DNA of 62,467 nt, from contig NC_057756.1 in NCBI RefSeq assembly GCF_004010195.1, forward strand, positions 8,450,456 to 8,512,922, in the 5' to 3' direction. The DNA is from Chiloscyllium plagiosum (lineage: Eukaryota). Shown piece by piece: positions 53,423 to 62,467 of this stretch (within the stretch, counting starts at the first letter, position 1; each line of letters opens with the position of its first letter). Below the pieces are notes generated by a model. The model saw only the letters and a program-made list of their open reading frames with translations. It was not told where the DNA came from and made no database searches. The position numbers and the translations under genes were made by a program.

Positions 53423-54314
53423 CTCTATACGATTTCACAGCCAGTGTAAAAGCATTAAGACCTGAAGGAAAGAAATGGGGAATTGTAAATATTCCTGTTT
53501 TGGGAGGTAACATTTAAAGATTGACACCAAGATATGGGAGTGACAAGCAAGTGTCGGGCAAGAAAGTGTATTGGCCCTGTGACATCATTGCCAAACCATG
53601 GATCCAGATACCGATGTTGTGTTCTGGGGAGTTGAGAGTGTGTTGCTGGGAAAACGCAGCAGGCCAGGCAGCATCAGGATACTGTCTGACCTGCTGCGCT
53701 TCTCCAGCACCACACTCTCGATTCTGATCTCCAGCATCTGCAGTCCTCACTTTCTCCTAGTGTTCTGGGGGGACCTGGTTCAAGTCCAGCCAGGGCAGAT
53801 GGCGGAATTTCGATTCAACGAAAATCTGGAATTAATGAGGCTTATAACCTGATTGTTGGGTCAAAACCCATCTGGTTCACTAATGTCCTTCAGGAAGGAA
53901 ACTGCCATGCTTCCTACATGTGACTCCAGACTCACAGCAATGTGGTTAACTCTGGGCAACAAATACTGGCTTTGTCATCAGATTGTCCGATTGAATTTCA
54001 ATTTGAAATTATCTAAATGTTGGGAAAGGTAGACATAAAGATATCTGAGTTCATTGGGTTCCCAAGTGGGACATATCCCAATACTCGACTTAAAGCACAG
54101 AAATATAGTGCAGTATTAAATAGTCAGAGATTTTAATATTGCCTTGTCTTTGAGGACGATGTTTCTTTCAGGACTCTCATGAAATTGAAATGAAAGATTC
54201 GGGCCAAATGGAGAGTGAAACACTGTTCAGATCCTGGCTGACTTCAGTTTGTTCTTGTTCAGGCTGTATGCTTCCGAACATCGCGACTGAAAAACAATGG
54301 CATTAAATGCAGGA

Positions 54315-54321
54315 TCAATAT
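54315..54321 (-). CDS. Probable terminal coding exon (R)Y-stop of the ITAM receptor
   Basis: tgattattttgcag|A TAT TGA; phase-2 entry matches the preceding AG|gt. Possible ATTAAA poly(A) signal near 54132-54137. Confidence 0.6.
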
Positions 54322-54434
54322 CTGCAAAATAATCAAACACCATGTGATAATCTGTCCAAATATGTGACGTGGGAATGAACAATTTCAAACAGCCTTCACA
54401 CAGAATTTATGGACAATTGGTCAGCTGCACTGAT

Positions 54435-54466
54435 AAATAGATAGATAGACAGACAGATAGACAGAC

Positions 54467-54497
<31 letters not shown>

Positions 54498-54500
54498 TAG
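54435..54500. repeat. (GATA)n/(GACA)n microsatellite in the last intron of the ITAM gene
   Basis: Directly visible. Confidence 0.95.
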
Positions 54501-54624
54501 AATGAAAGACTGTTGGCTATTAAACAGACATATGATGCATAAATTCAGAGATGCATGATAATGAGGTGGATGTTACCCAGATCAATTGATCACCTGACAA
54601 TTCAGGAAGCAGCGTGAATCTTAC

Positions 54625-54668
54625 CTTTGTATTTCATTGTACACTGACTGTTCCCCCAACTTCAAACT
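54625..54668 (-). CDS. Cytoplasmic exon (44 nt) SLKLGEQSVYNEIQ(R), completes the ITAM
   Basis: cacttcccacag|AGTTTG...ATACAAAG|gtaaga. Spliced to the previous exon it gives YTSL-x7-YNEI. Confidence 0.88.
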
Positions 54669-54766
54669 CTGTGGGAAGTGATCACAACAAGTCAGATTTA
54701 CTGCTTCCTGTGTAATGCTCAGTACAATTGATGTCGAACATGCATTAGCAGGTGGGTTCCACTCAC

Positions 54767-54796
54767 CGTGTAAGTAGCGTTGATCTCTGCGGAATC
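54767..54796 (-). CDS. Cytoplasmic exon (30 nt) DSAEINATYT, first ITAM tyrosine
   Basis: gttttctttacgtcccaag|GATTCC...TACACG|gtgagt, phase 0->0. An alternative internal CAG acceptor 10 nt in leaves the ITAM frame unchanged. Confidence 0.85.
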
Positions 54797-55464
54797 CTTG
54801 GGACGTAAAGAAAACAGTTTTCAGGTGTGGAATATTCTGGAATAGACCTCAACAGGAAGGGAAACAGAGGGGGCCAATGCAGATGTGGGAGTAACTGGAT
54901 TTAATGTGGATGATGAACAGGCTAAATAATATTTCAAATCTTTGCTGGGAATTAATTAATATCTGACAGTGGTGGCTGGAACCTTAAATCATACAGATTT
55001 CTCCACCTGAACATGTTCTTTGAAAGATCTCACTAAATATTTGCTGCCTCCCTCTCGGTTTTGCCCTAGAGTGCTCCCATTTATTCCCGTCGCAAGTTAT
55101 TTTCTCATCCCTCCCCCAGCTGTTTTGTATTCCTGTTGAATGAGTTGGCAGGCAGATCACAACAGCTCAGTGTATCAAAAAATAACTCCACCATTTTGTT
55201 ATTCCTTTAGCCAACTGACTTCAAACTGTGTCGCCCAGCCAATGAGAAAGGTTGCAATTTGGTTTTTTTGCTCTTGATTAGATTAGATTACTTACAGTGT
55301 GGAAACAGGCCCTTCGGCCCAAATCGCTTCAAAAGACCTACACAGAAACAGAATCTGAATGTATCCCTCAATGTTACTATCTTAACAATAATGTCTTAAT
55401 GAGGAAATAGAGACAATCACATACTCAGACAAATCAGAAATGGGCAAAAGTTCATTAAGTCATA

Positions 55465-55780
55465 TTAGATTAGATTAGATTACTTACAGTGTGGAAACAG
55501 GCCCTTCGGCCCAACAAGTCCACACCGCCCCGCCGAAGCGCAACCCACCCATACCCCTACATTTACCCCTTAACACTACGGGCAATTTAGCGTGGCCAAT
55601 TCATCTGACCCTGCACATCTTTGTGACTGTGGGAGTAAGCCGGAGCACCCGGAGGAAACCCACGCAGACACGGGGAGAACGTGCAAACTCCACACAGTCA
55701 GTCGCCTGAGGCGGGAATTGAACCCGGGTCTCTGGCGCTGTGAGGCAGCAGTGCTAGCCACTGTGCCACCGTGCCGCCCA
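55465..55780 (-). mobile_element. Full-length, well-preserved HE1-type SINE
   Basis: Head gggcggcacggtggcacagtgg, B box ggttcaattcc, tail with (TCTAA)n; a lone tail copy at 55277-55321. Confidence 0.93.
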
Positions 55781-56459
55781 CAAAGACCTCAAAGACCTCA
55801 AAGCAATTGGTGTGTTTCTGGGTAAAATTCAAGGCATCCCGGTAAAAACGATTCTTCCTCAGAAATCACACGACACCAGGTTATAGTGCGGCAGGTTTAT
55901 TTGCAATCACAAAGCTTTTGGAGCGCTGTGACTTGTGACTTCAAGTTCATCGATTGGACTGTATCCTGGTGTTGTGTGACTTCTGACTTTGCCCACCCGC
56001 GTCCAACACCATCACCTCCACATCAGAGATTCGTTGTGGCATTTTATATCGTTGCCTCCAGTGATATCGTCACCAAGGTCAAACCTGTTCACATTTGTTA
56101 AGCCTTGTTCCTCTTCTCTGATAATTAAAATACATTGTCACATGAAGGTAAATGTTTTATTCCCTGCTCTACACACTCTTAGGGAGCTGAAGGGAAAAAT
56201 TCAAATCGCAATTCCTTTCAAGTGATTCCGATCACACAGCACAAATGATTAGCCAAAAAAGGGATCAGACTGTCATCAGTCACAGGGATAAAGGAAAGTT
56301 ACTGCGGATGCTGGAATCTGAAAACAAAAGAGAAAATGCTGGAAAATCTCAGCAGGTCTGGCAGCATCTGTAAGGAGAGAAAAGAGCTGACATTTCGAGT
56401 CTAACTGACCCTTTTGTCAGCTTTGACAGTCAGTTAGACTTGAAACGTCAGCTCTTTTC

Positions 56460-57270
56460 CACCACCCTTTGTGTGAAAATCCTAGCCAGCACGTCTTTTT
56501 TAAACTTCCCCTCCTCCCACCCTCCCCCACGTCAAACAGCTCTTGAACCTGTATCCCCGAGTAACTGACCCCTCCACCCTGGGGAAAAGCCTCATACTTT
56601 CCACTCTATCCATGCCATTCCCAAGCTTTTACATTTCTATCAGGTCAGCCCTCAACCTCCTGCGTTCCAGTGAGAACAAACCCAGTCTAACCAACCTTCC
56701 TTCAGAGCTAAAGGCCCCATACCAGGCAACATCCTGATCAACCTTTTCTGCACCCCTCTCCAAAGCATCCACGTCCTTCTGGTTAGTGTGGTGACCAGAA
56801 CTGGATGCAATATTCCAAGTGTGGCCTCACTGAAGCTCTATAAAGCTGCAGCATAACGTGTTTATCCTTATACTCAATGCCCCGTCCCAATGAAGGTAAG
56901 CAGGCCATTGGTCTATTTACTAGGTAAAAACAATGACTGCAGACGCTGGAAACCAGATTCTGGATCAGTGGTGCTGGAAGAGCACAGCAATTCAGGCAGC
57001 ATCCGAGGACAGGCAAAATCATTTTGCCTGTCCTCGGATGCTGCCTGAATTGCTGTGCTCTTCCAGCACCACTGATCCAGAAATTGGTCTATTTACTGCC
57101 TTGTCTACCTGCACTGCCACCTTCAGTGATCTGGGGGCCTGCACACCCAGATCCCTCTACATCTCAATGCTCCTAAGGGTTCTGCCATTCACTGTATAAT
57201 TTCCACGACTACTTAACCTTCCTCACATTTATCTGGAATAAACTCTGTCTGCCATTCCATTCCACTCTGA
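56460..57270 (-). mobile_element. CR1 3' part carrying a hairpin insertion (56922-57082)
   Basis: RGIEYKDKHVMLQLYRASVRPHLEYCIQFWSPH; 15-bp target duplication around the insert. Confidence 0.88.
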
Positions 57271-57302
57271 TGTATCCAGAAGAGTTGAAAGGATTGACTT
57301 AC

Positions 57303-57349
57303 CTGTTGAAATTTCTTCCTTTGATTGGGAATGTTGATATAGTGCTCCT
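57303..57349 (-). CDS. Cytoplasmic exon (47 nt) of the ITAM receptor, xEHYINIPNQRKKFQQ
   Basis: gtattctttcag|AGGAGCAC...TTTCAACAG|gtaagt. All three frames are open; the phase 1->0 reading gives YINI and joins in frame to the next exon. Confidence 0.75.
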
Positions 57350-57594
57350 CTGAAAGAATACGTTAGGATGAATAAGACAGCTTGAATCATTCTCATGAAA
57401 CGTAATCTGTCATTCATTCTACACTCATCAGGACAGATGCAAGAATGCCATATTGAACAGGGAGCAACAACTTATGCTGCAGTCAGATTATGTTCTTGAT
57501 GTCCTGAATTTGATTTGATCTGAATTATTATTGTGACATGTCTCGAAGTACAGTGAAAAGTTTTGTTTTGTTTGCAGTACACACAGAATAGGAT

Positions 57595-57906
57595 GTCTAC
57601 AGTGCGGAAACAGGCCCTATGGTCAAACAAGTCCACACTGACCCTCTGAAGAGTGATCCACCCAGACCCATTCCCCCTATCTTATTACTATACATTTCCC
57701 TGACCTAAAACGCCGAACACACACGTCCCTGAACACTACGGGCAATTTAACACGGCAAATCCATCTTTGGACTGTGGGAGGAAACCGGAGCACCTGCAAG
57801 ACACAGGGCAAGTGTGCAAACTCTGCACAGACAGTCACCCAAGGTTGGAATTGAACTAGGGTCCCTGGCTCTGTGAGGCAGCAATGCTAACCACTGAGCC
57901 ACCGTG
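57595..57906 (-). mobile_element. HE1-type SINE
   Basis: Minus-strand cacggtggctcagtggttagcattgctgcctcacag head, plus tail. Confidence 0.85.
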
Positions 57907-58499
57907 CAGCATTAGGGTAATGGAACAGAGTGAGGAATGCAATGTTACCGCTGCAGAGAAGGTACGCTAAGAGCGAGATCAACACTGTATTTCACGTATG
58001 AGAGGTCCATTCAGAAATCTTACAAGAGCTGGGAAGAAACTGTTCCTGAGTCTGTCCAGTCTAATCTCTAATAGATATTAACAGACCCTTGCTGGTACAT
58101 TATTAGCAATTGTATAATTTCAAATCTACTTTCTTCCTTTCTGCATACATTAAGCTTTGTTATTGTTATCTTCTGCGGAAGTGTCACTGGACCTGAAACT
58201 TTAACTCCAATTTCTCTTCACAGAAGCTGCCAAACCTGCTGAGCTTTTCCAGCAATTTCTGTTGTTCTTTCTAATTTACAGCATCTGCGTTTTTTTGTTT
58301 TTTTACTTGTTGAATATTTTAAATTCGGTCTGTGCTGTACATGTATCTCACGTATATTAATCAGCATTTTCTGGTATCATTGCACATCCACCTCCATTGT
58401 TTCTACTCGATAAAAACCAGTGATACACTAATGTGAACCAACTCACCATTTCTGGACATCAGCAAACACACAGGATAAAGAGGTGGACGACCAGCGGAA

Positions 58500-59008
58500 G
58501 GCAGTGCAGTGGCTCAGGGGTTAGCACTGATGCCTCACAGCACCAGAGACGCGGGTTCGATCCCGCCCTCGGGTGACTGTCTGTGTGGAGTTTGCACACC
58601 CTCCCCGTGTCTGTGTGGGTTTCCTCCGGGTGCTCCGGTTTTCTCCCACAGTCCAAAGATGTGCAGGTTAGTGGGGATTGACCATGGGAAATTGTTCCAT
58701 AGTGCCCAGGGATGTGCAGGTTAGGGGGGATTGGCCATGGGAAATTGAGGTTAGGGTGGGTTGGCCATGGGAAATTGTCCCATAGTGTCCAGGGATGTGC
58801 AGGTTAGAGTGGATTAGCCATGGGGAATTGTCCCATAGTGCCCAGGGATGTGCAGGTTAGGGTGGATTGGCCATGGGAAATTGTCCCATAGTGCCCAGGG
58901 ATGTGCAGGTTAGAGTGGATTAGCCATGGGTAATTGTCCCATAGTGCCCAGGGATGTGCAGGTTAGGGTGGATTGGCCATGGGAATTTGCCCCAGAGTGT
59001 CCAAAGAT
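58500..59008 (+). mobile_element. HE1-type SINE with a 53-bp tandem expansion running into the gap
   Basis: A/B boxes, then repeated aggttagggtggattggccatgggaaattgtcccatagtgcccagggatgtgc. Confidence 0.92.
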
Positions 59009-59674
59009 NNNNNNNNNNNNNNNNNNNNNNNNNNNNNNNNNNNNNNNNNNNNNNNNNNNNNNNNNNNNNNNNNNNNNNNNNNNNNNNNNNNNNNNNNNNN
59101 NNNNNNNNNNNNNNNNNNNNNNNNNNNNNNNNNNNNNNNNNNNNNNNNNNNNNNNNNNNNNNNNNNNNNNNNNNNNNNNNNNNNNNNNNNNNNNNNNNNN
59201 NNNNNNNNNNNNNNNNNNNNNNNNNNNNNNNNNNNNNNNNNNNNNNNNNNNNNNNNNNNNNNNNNNNNNNNNNNNNNNNNNNNNNNNNNNNNNNNNNNNN
59301 NNNNNNNNNNNNNNNNNNNNNNNNNNNNNNNNNNNNNNNNNNNNNNNNNNNNNNNNNNNNNNNNNNNNNNNNNNNNNNNNNNNNNNNNNNNNNNNNNNNN
59401 NNNNNNNNNNNNNNNNNNNNNNNNNNNNNNNNNNNNNNNNNNNNNNNNNNNNNNNNNNNNNNNNNNNNNNNNNNNNNNNNNNNNNNNNNNNNNNNNNNNN
59501 NNNNNNNNNNNNNNNNNNNNNNNNNNNNNNNNNNNNNNNNNNNNNNNNNNNNNNNNNNNNNNNNNNNNNNNNNNNNNNNNNNNNNNNNNNNNNNNNNNNN
59601 NNNNNNNNNNNNNNNNNNNNNNNNNNNNNNNNNNNNNNNNNNNNNNNNNNNNNNNNNNNNNNNNNNNNNNNNNN

Positions 59675-59757
59675 TAGAGCAATGGTCAATGCTACCAGAG
59701 CGATCACCAGCACTCCCACTATCACCCATGGAATGATGAGCTTGCTATCGGTATGAC
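59675..59757 (-). CDS. Transmembrane exon of an ITAM-bearing type I receptor (3' end lost in gap 59009-59674)
   Basis: Minus strand: pyrimidine tract cccttctctttgtgttttcacag, then phase-1 entry xGT CAT ACC... = (G)HTDSKLIIPWVIVGVLVIALVALTIAL; about 22 uncharged hydrophobic residues running into the Ns. Confidence 0.85.
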
Positions 59758-59842
59758 CTGTGAAAACACAAAGAGAAGGGAATGGGGAGTGAACAAGGCA
59801 ATTGGATACCAACCAGCAAGAATCTCCTTTATACGGTTCCTC

Positions 59843-60092
59843 CATGGCCAATCCACCCTAACCTGCACATCGCTGGGCACTGTGGGACAATTTCCCATGG
59901 CCAATCCACCCTAATCTGCACATCCCTGGACACTATGGGACAATTTCCCATGGCCAATCCACATAACCTGCACATCCCAGGGCACTATGGGACAATTTCC
60001 CATGGCCAATCCACCCTAACCTGCACACCTTTGTACAGTGGGAGGAAACCAGAGCACCCAGTGAAATTCTACACAGACAGGGGCAGAACATG
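59843..60092 (-). mobile_element. HE1-type SINE fragment with a 53-bp tandem expansion; followed by a Penelope-like fragment (60093-60480)
   Basis: ccatggccaatccaccctaacctgcacatc units; ctcagacgtttcgtcaccatgctaggtgacatcatcagtg. Confidence 0.85.
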
Positions 60093-61509
60093 TTTGGAGA
60101 AGATTTGTCGCTCAGATTGTGAATCAGGTTGTAAGGTTGTTCACTGAGCTGGTAGATTCTTCTCAGACGTTTCGTCACCATGCTAGGTGACATCATCAGT
60201 GCGCCTCCGGTGATGTTTTGACCCACTTGCTGTTTATGTGTCTTGGTCTGTTGTAGTCGGTCATATCACTTCCCGTTCCTTTTTCTGAGAGTTTGCTAAA
60301 CGGAGTCCAAATCAATGTGTGTGTTGATGGAGGTTTAAATGCCAGGCCTCTAGGAATTCCTGTCCATGTATCTGTTTAGCCTGTCCTAAACTGGTGTCCC
60401 CCTCTATCTGTGTGTAAGGAGACTTATGTGTATGGATACCAGTGATAGTTGGTCATGTCTTTTGGTTACATGTGTGCCAACTAGCCATCGAAAGTCATGA
60501 CCAACTACCGAGCTGCAGTGTATGTTAAGGCTCATCATTAATTGTGATGGGTATGTGTTATATTAAACAGACTGGCTCACACAGACAGCACTATTCTCTC
60601 TGTAGATGCAGCAGAGGTGAGTATAACCAGCTAAGATCTATAATGGGGGGCAAATACCCAGAACATGACCCTCACAAGCGAGGCTAACGCCAATACCCCT
60701 CCCCCCCCCACCCCCCGCCACAAAATACTCCCGGCAAAGGTAAAGAATTAATTAATTCAAGCAATCCTTAATTGTGTGAATTTCCCAAAGTGTAAAGGTA
60801 TTGGATGGTCTGAATATTCCGTTCGCAAGATGATCCGAAACTGGATATACATTGAATTATCAAAAATATGTGCAGGAGTAGCCATTCGGCCCCTCCTGGC
60901 CTGTTCTGCCATTCAATATGATCATGGCTGATCGTCCAACTCAATAGCCCCTACTTTCTCCAATATCCTTCCATCCCCTTAGCCCAAAGAACTATTACTA
61001 ACTCTTATTGAAAACATTTAGTGTTTTGACCTCAATTGCAGAGAATCATCCAGGCTGAGTGAGCACATTTCTCCTCATCTCAGTCCTGAAAGGCACAGCC
61101 CTTATCTAGGCGTTTGTCATAATGAGTCTGAATCAAAACGATCTACATTCAGGAATGGTGCATTGTAGCTGTAAACTTGTGGCACAGTGGTAGTGTCCCT
61201 AACTCTGGGCCAGAAAGCTCACCTTCCCTGGAGGAGGTGTAGTATCACTGATGCACCCTGGTAATGGGGACCTGTCGAAGCTTCAATGGGATGAACCTCC
61301 CCCCCCCACCCCCCACCCTCTTCATTCTTCTAAAGTCCAGTGAATATTGTCCAAACGGATTCAGTCTCTCTCCATACGTCTCTCAGCAGTCCTGCCATTC
61401 CAGGCATCAGTCTGGGAAACCTTTGTGACACTCCCTCCATCACCAGAATGTCCTTCCTCCGAATACGGAGACAATTACTCACTACTCCAAAACTGCTACC
61501 ATCTCAAAT

Positions 61510-62085
61510 TGAAGAGTCATAGTGTCCCACAACATGGAGACAGGACCTTTGGCCCAGCTGGTCCATGCCGACCAAAATGTCCATCTACGCTCACCCCATT
61601 TCCCTACACTTGGTCCATATCCTTCTAATCCTTTCCTATCCATGTATTTGTCCTTTTAAATGTTGTTAATGTACCCGCCTCAACCCCTTCCACTGGCAGC
61701 TCATTCCATATGCGTACCACCCTCCGTGTAAAAAAGTTGCCCCTCAGGTTCCCTTTTATTCTTTCCCCCTCTAACCTTAAACTGATGCCCTCTAGTCCTC
61801 GATTCCCCAGCCCTGGGGAAAAGACTGAGTGTGATCACCCTGTCCATGTCCCTCATGATCTTATACACCTCTATAAGGTCACCCCTCAGTCTCCTACGCT
61901 CTAAGGAAAACACTCCGAGCTTGTCCAACCTCTCTCCCTGTAACTCAGACCATTGAGTCCTGGCATCATCCTAATAAATTTCTTCTGCACCCTTTCCAGT
62001 TTCATACCATCCTTCCTACAGCAAGGTGACCAAAACCAAACACAAAACTCCAAGTGCGGCCTCACCAATATCCTGTAGAACTGTA
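61510..62085 (-). mobile_element. CR1 LINE 3' end
   Basis: LVRPHLEFCVWFWSP; KLGVFSLERRRLRGDLIEVYKIMR. Confidence 0.92.
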
Positions 62086-62327
62086 GGTTTATAGATCTGT
62101 AGGTTTTAGTCTGAGGGAGCATTTGGATTGACAACTGGCAAGTAAATTGCACGCCGCACAAATGCCAGGCTATGACCATCACCGATAAAAGACACCTGAC
62201 CACCTTGACAGTCAGTGGCATTACCGTCACAGAATCCCACGCAATCAACATCCTGGGGAGTGTTATCACTGACCAGAAACTCAACTGGAAAAACACAGCA
62301 GGCCAGGCAGCATCCGAGGAGCAGGAG

Positions 62328-62363
62328 AATCGACGTTTCGGGCATAAGCCCTTCTTCAGGAAT
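62328..62363 (-). ncRNA. Minimal hammerhead motif in a Penelope-like terminus (62288-62467)
   Basis: Minus strand AUUC-CUGAAGA-A-GGGC-UUAU-GCCC-GAAA-CGUC-GAUU; stem I imperfect. Confidence 0.55.
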
Positions 62364-62467
62364 GAGGCTGGTGTGCCAGGCGGGATGAGATAAAAGGTAG
62401 GGGGGAGGGAATTTGGGGTACGGGCGCTGGGAATACGATAGGTGGAAGGAGGTGAGGGTGAGGGTGA

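What the first reader, a model, noticed from the sequence alone, without database searches (positions are those of the whole stretch)
54315..59757. Hidden minus-strand receptor carrying its own ITAM plus a YxN motif
Seen: a TM exon and four short exons with canonical AG/GT sites that splice in phase to ...EHYINIPNQRKKFQQ|DSAEINATYT|SLKLGEQSVYNEIQR|Y*, giving YxxL-x7-YxxI. Known: a phase-0 intron splitting the first YxxL after Y-x is the ITAM exon layout of FCER1G, TYROBP and CEACAM3, and YxN is the GRB2 SH2 preference. The visible TM lacks the acidic residue of FcR-gamma/DAP12/CD3 adaptors and has no basic residue for adaptor pairing. Inference: a self-signalling activating immunoreceptor whose ectodomain exons lie beyond 62467; the phase-1 acceptor fits an Ig-superfamily gene.
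Basis: partly seen in the sequence, partly recalled or inferred. Interest (0 to 1): 0.85.

Follow-up and report, generated by a model that had tools for sequence, protein, structure and literature searches.

The report
Shark nectin-like activating/inhibitory receptor pair
These small exons end a shark cell-surface protein that resembles the adhesion molecule nectin outside and carries a predicted 'switch-on' immune signal inside, and several sharks also have a near-identical twin with a predicted 'switch-off' tail, likely an old decoy system against microbes that hijack the twin.

Summary
The exons are real and in phase. With the transmembrane exon completed from an unplaced contig they read through without a stop and match gene models of related sharks without gaps (72 of 77 residues to Hemiscyllium). 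The ectodomain lies 8-17 kb beyond the window and is nectin/PVR-type (V-C2-C2). Public models call it 'nectin-1-like', but it has YxN plus YxxL-x7-YxxI where nectins end in a PDZ-binding motif.

Five other shark species have both an ITAM-type and an ITIM/ITSM-type copy. Ectodomains group by species (87-100% identical per domain in four pairs) while tails group by signal type (22-31% within pairs); AU tests back both conflicts. This is the concerted evolution known from CEACAM1/CEACAM3, here on a nectin scaffold and in both shark superorders. My searches found no paper describing it.

Caveats: splicing was not checked on RNA; the tiny last exon is doubtful; one ectodomain exon and the leader are missing from this scaffold; the acidic residue of the strict ITAM consensus is absent; ligand and signalling are inferred.

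The parts
59758..62467 (-). last part of the intron before the TM exon. The ectodomain exons lie beyond the window's right edge (numbering continued): IgV 79402-79064 (L010:6597-6935; 339 nt, phase 1 to 1; AX6G lock and TFP key present), second Ig 74070-73777 (294 nt, 1 to 1), first half of third Ig 70978-70861 (1 to 2). The second half of the third Ig (149 nt, 2 to 1) was found only on unplaced G000:C101537:37387-37535 and likely belongs in the gap at 62468-64083
   Evidence: V-set E 1.5e-12; nectin-1 D1 E 4.4e-17; placement in the gap is inferred
59647..59757 (-). transmembrane exon, 111 nt, phase 1 to 1, no charged TM residue; last 28 nt fall in the N gap and are read from G000:C7797
57303..57349 (-). 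cytoplasmic exon 1 with the YxN (predicted GRB2-binding) motif
   Evidence: YxN in 9 of 10 ITAM-type models
54767..54796 (-). cytoplasmic exon 2, ends after Y-x of the first ITAM half (phase-0 intron)
54625..54668 (-). cytoplasmic exon 3, rest of the ITAM; its donor doubles as an in-frame stop
54315..54321 (-). possible last coding exon (completes Arg, adds Tyr, stop); unproven; an ATTAAA lies at 54137

Best explanation
This is the transmembrane and signalling end of a shark nectin/PVR-type three-Ig protein with a YxN and an ITAM-spaced tyrosine pair, and it likely acts as the activating, decoy half of a receptor pair whose twin has a near-identical ectodomain and an ITIM/ITSM tail. Shown: gene structure, motifs, the twin in five other species, and ectodomains that group by species while tails group by signal type. 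Inferred: repeated gene conversion keeps the two ectodomains matched; on clustering, a Src-family kinase would phosphorylate the tail, SYK/ZAP70 would dock on the tyrosine pair and GRB2 on YxN with no adaptor chain needed, while the twin would recruit SHP-1/2. Most likely driver (inferred from CEACAM1/CEACAM3 and from nectins being virus receptors): a microbe binds the inhibitory twin for entry or immune dampening, and the ITAM copy turns the same binding into uptake or activation.
For: Nectin-type V domain. ITAM-type models in 8 other species of four orders and both shark superorders (taxonomy). Both types in one species: Hemiscyllium, Stegostoma, Cetorhinus, Pristiophorus, Carcharodon, and an ITIM-type last exon in this genome (G000:C91666). 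In 4 full-length conspecific pairs V is 87-96%, second Ig 97-100%, third Ig 89-98% identical, but TM 36-47% and tail 22-31%; between orders or families V is only 40-61%. Ectodomain tree pairs by species (98-100 bootstrap), TM+tail tree splits 6 ITAM rows from 10 others at 100/100; AU tests reject ITAM monophyly on ectodomains (p 9e-7) and species grouping on tails in 4 of 4 tests (p below 1e-4). A second V exon in this genome (C92302) shares a 463-bp tract at 96.5% that ends within about 100 bases of the exon, with 12 non-synonymous and 1 synonymous difference, like the exon-restricted conversion in Xenopus ceacam pairs (PMC5112662). V evolves faster than the linked nectin-2-like gene (45/102 to 58/102 against 80/113 across superorders). 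Neighbours are immune-type genes.
Against: No RNA, protein or ligand data. The acidic residue three before the first tyrosine of the strict consensus (PMC2832619) is absent here and in 10 of 11 models; Stegostoma has YxxV in the first half; Scyliorhinus torazame lacks YxN; one Mustelus copy (P0048) stops before the second tyrosine. The excess of non-synonymous changes is not significant (Fisher p 0.31) and within-pair differences are not enriched on the binding face (27 of 46, 53% expected, p 0.26). The FG-loop Phe/Tyr-Pro key is kept in 17 of 21 family models, which fits a self nectin ligand as well as a microbe. In this assembly the twin's exons lie on separate unplaced contigs, so C92302 cannot be tied to the ITIM tail (diagnostic residues are mixed), and linkage and orientation of the two genes are open. 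All orthologue evidence is from predicted gene models.
Confidence: 0.62

Rival explanations
1. The pair reads a self ligand, as CD226 and TIGIT/CD96 do: both copies bind a host nectin through the lock-and-key interface, and conversion keeps their ligand choice matched so that activation and inhibition stay balanced. No microbe is needed.
For: AX6G lock and TFP key are intact in the window's gene; the Phe/Tyr-Pro key is kept in 17 of 21 family models (motif definition PMC10486284). YxN recruiting GRB2 is how DNAM-1 signals (PMC8390200). A conserved nectin-2-like gene lies 1.7 Mb away on the same contig.
Against: A slowly changing self ligand does not explain why both ectodomains change fast and together (V 40-61% between lineages; nectin-2-like V 80/113). 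Between species the binding face is more variable than the rest (3.27 against 2.37 residues per column, p 0.002; no control for the general variability of Ig loops). Two Mustelus and two Carcharodon copies have lost the key.
Confidence: 0.22
2. The tail is an endocytic or damping tyrosine pair rather than an activating ITAM: it would clear bound ligand or recruit phosphatases.
For: No acidic residue at the -3 position in 10 of 11 models; the second half also fits the loose ITIM pattern in 5 of 6 ITAM rows; CEACAM papers class such tails as 'ITAM-like, endocytic'.
Against: The 7-residue spacing is fixed in 10 of 10 complete ITAM-type models, two or three acidic residues lie within eight positions upstream, and the first half is split by a phase-0 intron as in published ITAM exons. 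Human CEACAM3 triggers uptake and destruction through an ITAM-like motif (PMC2832619).
Confidence: 0.1
3. The family is real but this genome's copy is broken: the second half of the third Ig domain is deleted, which would shift the frame before the TM exon.
For: That exon and the leader exon were not found in the called sequence of the scaffold; the genome's own model lacks TM and tail.
Against: A 1.6-kb gap lies where the exon belongs and further gaps lie upstream; all visible exons are open with canonical borders; the two closest relatives have complete models; V-to-TM skipping would stay in frame, a form seen in Carcharodon models.
Confidence: 0.06

Closest known systems
CEACAM1/CEACAM3-type paired receptors of mammals, Xenopus and reptiles (PMC2832619, PMC2110893, PMC5112662, PMC13278318; passages read)
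   Same: ITIM/ITSM copy and ITAM copy with matched ligand-binding domains; exon-restricted conversion; YxN plus ITAM on short exons with the first YxxL split by a phase-0 intron; no adaptor needed.
   Different: The ectodomain is nectin-type with a two-cysteine V domain and lock-and-key motifs; here all three Ig domains are homogenised, not mainly the N domain; no ligand is known.
PVR/CD155 (Necl-5)
   Same: V-C2-C2 nectin-type ectodomain, no PDZ-binding end, ITIM tail, fast evolution (PMC7286890): the shark inhibitory twin is built like it.
   Different: PVR is reported only in placental mammals and derived from nectin-2; the shark family falls outside the nectin-2/PVR group in my tree (labels of unnamed rows recalled from their ends). 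No ITAM twin of PVR came up in my searches.
Nectin-1 to -4
   Same: Best sequence and fold matches (nectin-1 D1); three Ig domains; lock-and-key motifs.
   Different: No C-terminal PDZ/afadin motif; short tyrosine-motif tail; more typical nectin genes lie elsewhere in this genome.
CD226 (DNAM-1), TIGIT, CD96, PVRIG
   Same: PVR-family V domain; opposing activating and inhibitory members; YxN/ITT motif binding GRB2 (PMC8390200).
   Different: These are distant paralogues with unlike ectodomains and, in the passages read, no full ITAM; the shark V is much closer to nectins (E 4e-17) than to CD226 (5e-7), CD96 (1e-5) or TIGIT (2e-4).
RefSeq 'nectin-1-like' models of sharks (e.g. XP_072409826.1, XP_060708596.1, XP_059497373.1, XP_078389611.1)
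   Same: The same gene, with the same tail, already predicted automatically.
   Different: Named by similarity only; the ITAM, the twin and the concerted evolution are not part of the name.

Membership tests
Nectin/PVR superfamily | V-C2-C2 ectodomain, TM, tail | tested here: met
   one exon is unplaced in this assembly but present in orthologues
Nectin/PVR superfamily | AX6G lock and T(F/Y)P key in the V domain | tested here: met
   both in the window's gene; looser in relatives; definition PMC10486284
Classical nectins 1-4 | C-terminal PDZ/afadin-binding motif | tested here: not met
   ends of 21 family models, some partial; requirement from PMC7286890; the motif's letters are recalled
Classical nectins 1-4 | orthology to nectin-1, -2, -3 or -4 | tested here: not met
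   own clade of 15 rows at 100/100 in a 52-row tree, outside those groups; deep branching unresolved
ITAM receptors | YxxL/I-x6-8-YxxL/I | tested here: met
   first half YxxL in 9 of 10 models, YxxV in Stegostoma
ITAM receptors | D/E three residues before the first tyrosine (strict consensus) | tested here: not met
   Asn here; acidic in 1 of 11 models: 'ITAM-like' by the definition in PMC2832619
ITAM receptors | first YxxL split by a phase-0 intron | tested here: met
   published hallmark in PMC2110893; junction supported by orthologue models, not by reads
ITAM receptors | phosphorylation and SYK/ZAP70 binding | not testable with these tools
   needs experiment
Paired receptors | near-identical ectodomains with opposing tails in one species | tested here: met
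   4 full-length pairs plus single-V ITAM forms in Carcharodon
Paired receptors | similarity kept by gene conversion | tested here: met
   tree conflict and AU tests; exon-restricted tract; mechanism itself inferred
Paired receptors | close linkage, often opposite orientation | tested here: inconclusive
   both types share the same longest-contig length in 4 species; positions and orientation unknown; twin unplaced in this genome
Paired receptors | shared ligand and opposite signalling in leukocytes | not testable with these tools
   needs expression and binding data
CEACAM family | CEACAM-type N domain | tested here: not met
   no CEACAM among the 60 best of 64 structure matches shown; tail only weakly similar to a turtle CEACAM-type tail (score 33)
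Adaptor-coupled activating receptors (FcR-gamma, DAP12 partners) | charged TM residue | tested here: not met
   none here nor in 8 of 8 models

The most novel reading that the evidence does not exclude
Sharks carry an undescribed nectin-derived paired-receptor system: an ITIM/ITSM receptor exploited by a microbe and an ITAM decoy whose whole ectodomain has been re-copied from it in every lineage since before galeomorph and squalomorph sharks split. It would show that the nectin scaffold, like CEACAM, can be recruited into a decoy pair, with parallel recruitments hinted at by turtle and teleost gene models, and it offers a matched bait pair for finding a long-lived shark pathogen adhesin.
Probability: 0.5. 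Interest if true: 0.75.

Novelty: new variant of a known kind. Interest (0 to 1): 0.6.

Why it matters
Paired activating and inhibitory receptors kept alike by gene conversion are read as the footprint of a host-pathogen arms race. They are described for CEACAMs in mammals, reptiles and amphibians; here the same design appears in cartilaginous fish on a different scaffold. In mammals the nectin axis signals through TIGIT, CD96, CD226 and an ITIM in PVR; a nectin-type receptor with its own ITAM did not come up in my searches. The pair gives shark immunology a concrete candidate for adaptor-free innate activation, corrects a misleading 'nectin-1-like' label in at least nine species, and makes a direct test possible: put both tails on one reporter, and use the two ectodomains as bait.

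Tried and rejected
Motif-only chance test: the split-ITAM pattern occurs at chance level, so it was dropped as evidence. Single-IgV TIGIT-like reading: dropped when two further Ig exons were found; my first motif scan had missed them. One gene with alternative tails: rejected because paired models differ in leader and in 2-8% of ectodomain residues and carry separate accessions. C92302 as an allelic haplotig: rejected because likeness ends within about 100 bases of the exon. Positive selection between the two V copies: not significant (p 0.31). Enrichment of within-pair differences on the binding face: not found (p 0.26). Leader exon: not found in 61 kb upstream, four query leaders. Orthologue-like last exon: not found downstream in the window. 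Second half of the third Ig domain: not found between 54000 and 71000. Sequencing-run search: no RNA holder listed. ITAM-type copies in rays or chimaeras: none among the named hits (word-limited or cluster-level searches, most hits unnamed; weak). No complex prediction was run: a nectin-nectin pair would tend to pass by likeness to solved structures. Literature: searches (top 3-25 listings each) showed no paper on a shark or ITAM-bearing nectin-type receptor; most subscription journals are not in the library. Earlier-findings look-ups were empty. Scripts 31 (time limit) and 77 (error) were rerun.
Full report
Observation. The window lies at G000:C47:8450456-8512922. The TM exon runs into a gap, but contig C7797 holds it whole: 111 nt, phase 1 to 1. 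The five exons give 79 codons without an internal stop, one YxN, one YxxL-x7-YxxI and an uncharged TM. The splice pattern alone is at chance level: 3 hits (two on the real exon) in 301,062 called bases against a mean of 3.05 in 20 shuffles. Orthology settles it: 72/77 and 68/77 identical residues, without gaps across the junctions, to the Hemiscyllium ocellatum and Chiloscyllium punctatum models, and 30/72 to 47/77 for six further species. The donor after the ITAM exon also reads as a stop; 7 of 11 ITAM-type models end there, so the 7-nt last exon is unproven. Splicing was not checked on reads.

The ectodomain. In 200 kb fetched to the right lie a V exon at 79402-79064, a C2 exon at 74070-73777 and half of a third Ig at 70978-70861 (numbering continued). 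The V domain matches nectin-1 best by sequence (E 4.4e-17; CD226 5e-7, CD96 1e-5, TIGIT 2e-4) and by fold (model pLDDT 86; top match nectin-1 D1), and has the AX6G lock and TFP key defined in PMC10486284 (passages). The second half of the third Ig and the leader are not in the called scaffold sequence; a 1.6-kb gap lies where the former belongs, and the only close copy found is on unplaced C101537. The genome's own model (P0007, named 'poliovirus receptor homolog', Chiloscyllium plagiosum, 100% identical over the shared part of the V exon) stops without TM or tail.

The pair. Homologue searches returned two tail types on the same ectodomain. ITAM-type models: C. punctatum, H. ocellatum, Stegostoma, Cetorhinus, Carcharodon, Scyliorhinus torazame, Mustelus, Pristiophorus, spanning four orders and both superorders (for four species; the others recalled). 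In 10 complete models the spacing is 7 in 10, YxN is present in 9, the first half is YxxL in 9; these were picked as ITAM-type by their tails, and one further Mustelus model (P0048) ends before the second tyrosine. ITIM/ITSM-type models: H. ocellatum, Stegostoma, Rhincodon, Cetorhinus, Carcharodon, Heterodontus, Heptranchias, Pristiophorus, S. canicula, and a single last exon with two ITIM-like motifs on C91666 in this genome. In the four full-length conspecific pairs the three Ig domains are 87-96%, 97-100% and 89-98% identical, TM 36-47%, tail 22-31%; same-type V domains of different lineages are 40-61% identical, while ITAM tails keep 48-71% in those comparisons. A 16-row ectodomain tree pairs the copies by species; the TM+tail tree of the same rows splits the 6 ITAM rows from the rest at 100/100. 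AU tests reject one ITAM clade on ectodomains (p 9e-7) and species groups on tails in 4 of 4 tests (quick trees, groups named after the first trees were seen). Left out of these trees: partial, fused and single-V models (P0002, P0007, P0020, P0042, P0048, P0051, P0055, P0183, P0185) and shorter isoforms; Mustelus P0182 was added. At DNA level, a second V exon (C92302) shares 463 bp at 96.5%, ending about 100 bases upstream and 25 downstream of the exon, with 12 non-synonymous and 1 synonymous change (Fisher p 0.31); the second C2 exon (C93547) has 2 and 2. C92302 could not be tied to the ITIM tail.

Place in the family. In a 52-row ectodomain tree the 15 shark rows form one clade (100/100), sister (93/92) to a third paralogue with decayed motifs in rays, and outside the nectin-1, nectin-2/PVR and nectin-3/4 groups; the deep order is unresolved (labels of unnamed rows are recalled from their C-terminal motifs). 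A conserved nectin-2-like gene lies at C47:10.2 Mb; its V domain keeps 80/113 residues across superorders against 45/102 to 58/102 for the receptor. Within 140 kb lie a Siglec/MAG-like gene, an interferon-inducible GTPase and B7-like V exons (109 ORFs scanned, picked mostly by length from 776 candidates). That this resembles the human 19q13 region around PVR and CEACAM is recalled, not tested.

How it likely works. Shown: structure, motifs, twin, tree conflict. Inferred from established ITAM/ITIM biology: clustering leads to Src-family phosphorylation, SYK/ZAP70 docking on the tyrosine pair and GRB2 on YxN without an adaptor chain, while the twin recruits SHP phosphatases. Inferred by analogy: conversion keeps a decoy matched to a receptor that a microbe exploits, as argued for CEACAM pairs, which share the YxN-plus-ITAM tail on short exons with a phase-0 split (PMC5112662, PMC2110893, PMC2832619; passages only; supplements not opened, and their tail alignments might bear on the origin of this tail). 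Nectin-1 is solved bound to herpesvirus glycoprotein D (entries). Against: the strict ITAM acidic residue is missing, within-pair changes are not enriched on the binding face (27 of 46, p 0.26), and the key motif is mostly kept, which suits a self ligand. Between species the binding face is more variable (p 0.002), without a control for ordinary loop variability. I put the pair itself at about 0.9, activating signalling at about 0.8, and the full decoy reading at about 0.6.

Novelty. The proteins exist as automatic 'nectin-1-like' models. Seven searches aimed at this (listings and abstract starts only) showed no description; searches served to find the comparison papers. A nectin evolution paper has no occurrence of ITAM and treats PVR as the only ITIM member, confined to placental mammals (PMC7286890; passages and most of the discussion); a 2026 reptile CEACAM preprint has no occurrence of nectin or PVR (PMC13278318; passages); a review of fish immunity names no such receptor in the passages found (PMC6795676). 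Also seen as passages: PMC8390200, PMC12065747. Subscription journals are mostly missing from the library, so absence from print is likely, not shown. Interest 0.6.

Noticed in passing
P0175, P0192, P0219 (painted turtle models): Nectin-2-type ectodomain joined to a YxN and ITAM tail (with TM in two of the three) whose best matches (82-88%) are turtle CEACAM tails: a real nectin-CEACAM chimera or a gene-model fusion.
   Followed up: partly
P0098, P0181 (Metynnis hypsauchen): Teleost nectin-2-group proteins whose tails carry one or two YxxL-x8-YxxL repeats instead of a PDZ end: a possible parallel recruitment.
   Followed up: partly
P0020 (Heptranchias perlo): The model fuses a single-IgV receptor with TM and two ITIM-like motifs to the three-Ig inhibitory twin; the first half looks like a separate TIGIT-shaped inhibitory gene next door.
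   Followed up: no
G000:C96452, C96261, C82352; P0029, P0030, P0053, P0187: A third nectin-type paralogue whose ITIM tyrosines are partly or wholly replaced, present in rays and, apparently in pieces, in this genome.
   Followed up: partly
P0055, P0183, P0185 (Carcharodon), P0048, P0182 (Mustelus): Several ITAM-type copies per species, some with a single V domain joined to the TM and some that have lost the FG-loop key motif.
   Followed up: partly
L085:4089-6418 (-), about 24-26 kb left of the window: Three Ig exons of a Siglec/MAG/sialoadhesin-like gene.
   Followed up: partly
L014:3954-4664 (+), L017:151-579 (+), L022:5949-6434 (-), L028:1133-1669 (-), L090:5137-6153 (-): Interferon-inducible GTPase, two B7-like V exons (CD276/VTCN1-like) plus fragments, a C1q domain and a single-exon 7TM receptor around the gene.
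   Followed up: partly
G000:C47:10206245-10242733 (L043-L047): Nectin-2-like gene with two TM-like exons about 22 kb apart, suggesting two alternative tails.
   Followed up: no
window 42640-42584 (-): Last exon used by the genome's own truncated model P0007; it begins in phase 2, so it could also accept the donor at 54625.
   Followed up: no
G000:C101537:37791-39479 against 66230-69969 (window numbering continued to the right): Intron stretches 92-99% identical to the scaffold upstream of the missing exon, with no match downstream of it: either the twin gene with a long converted tract or a mis-join at a LINE in the scaffold.
   Followed up: partly
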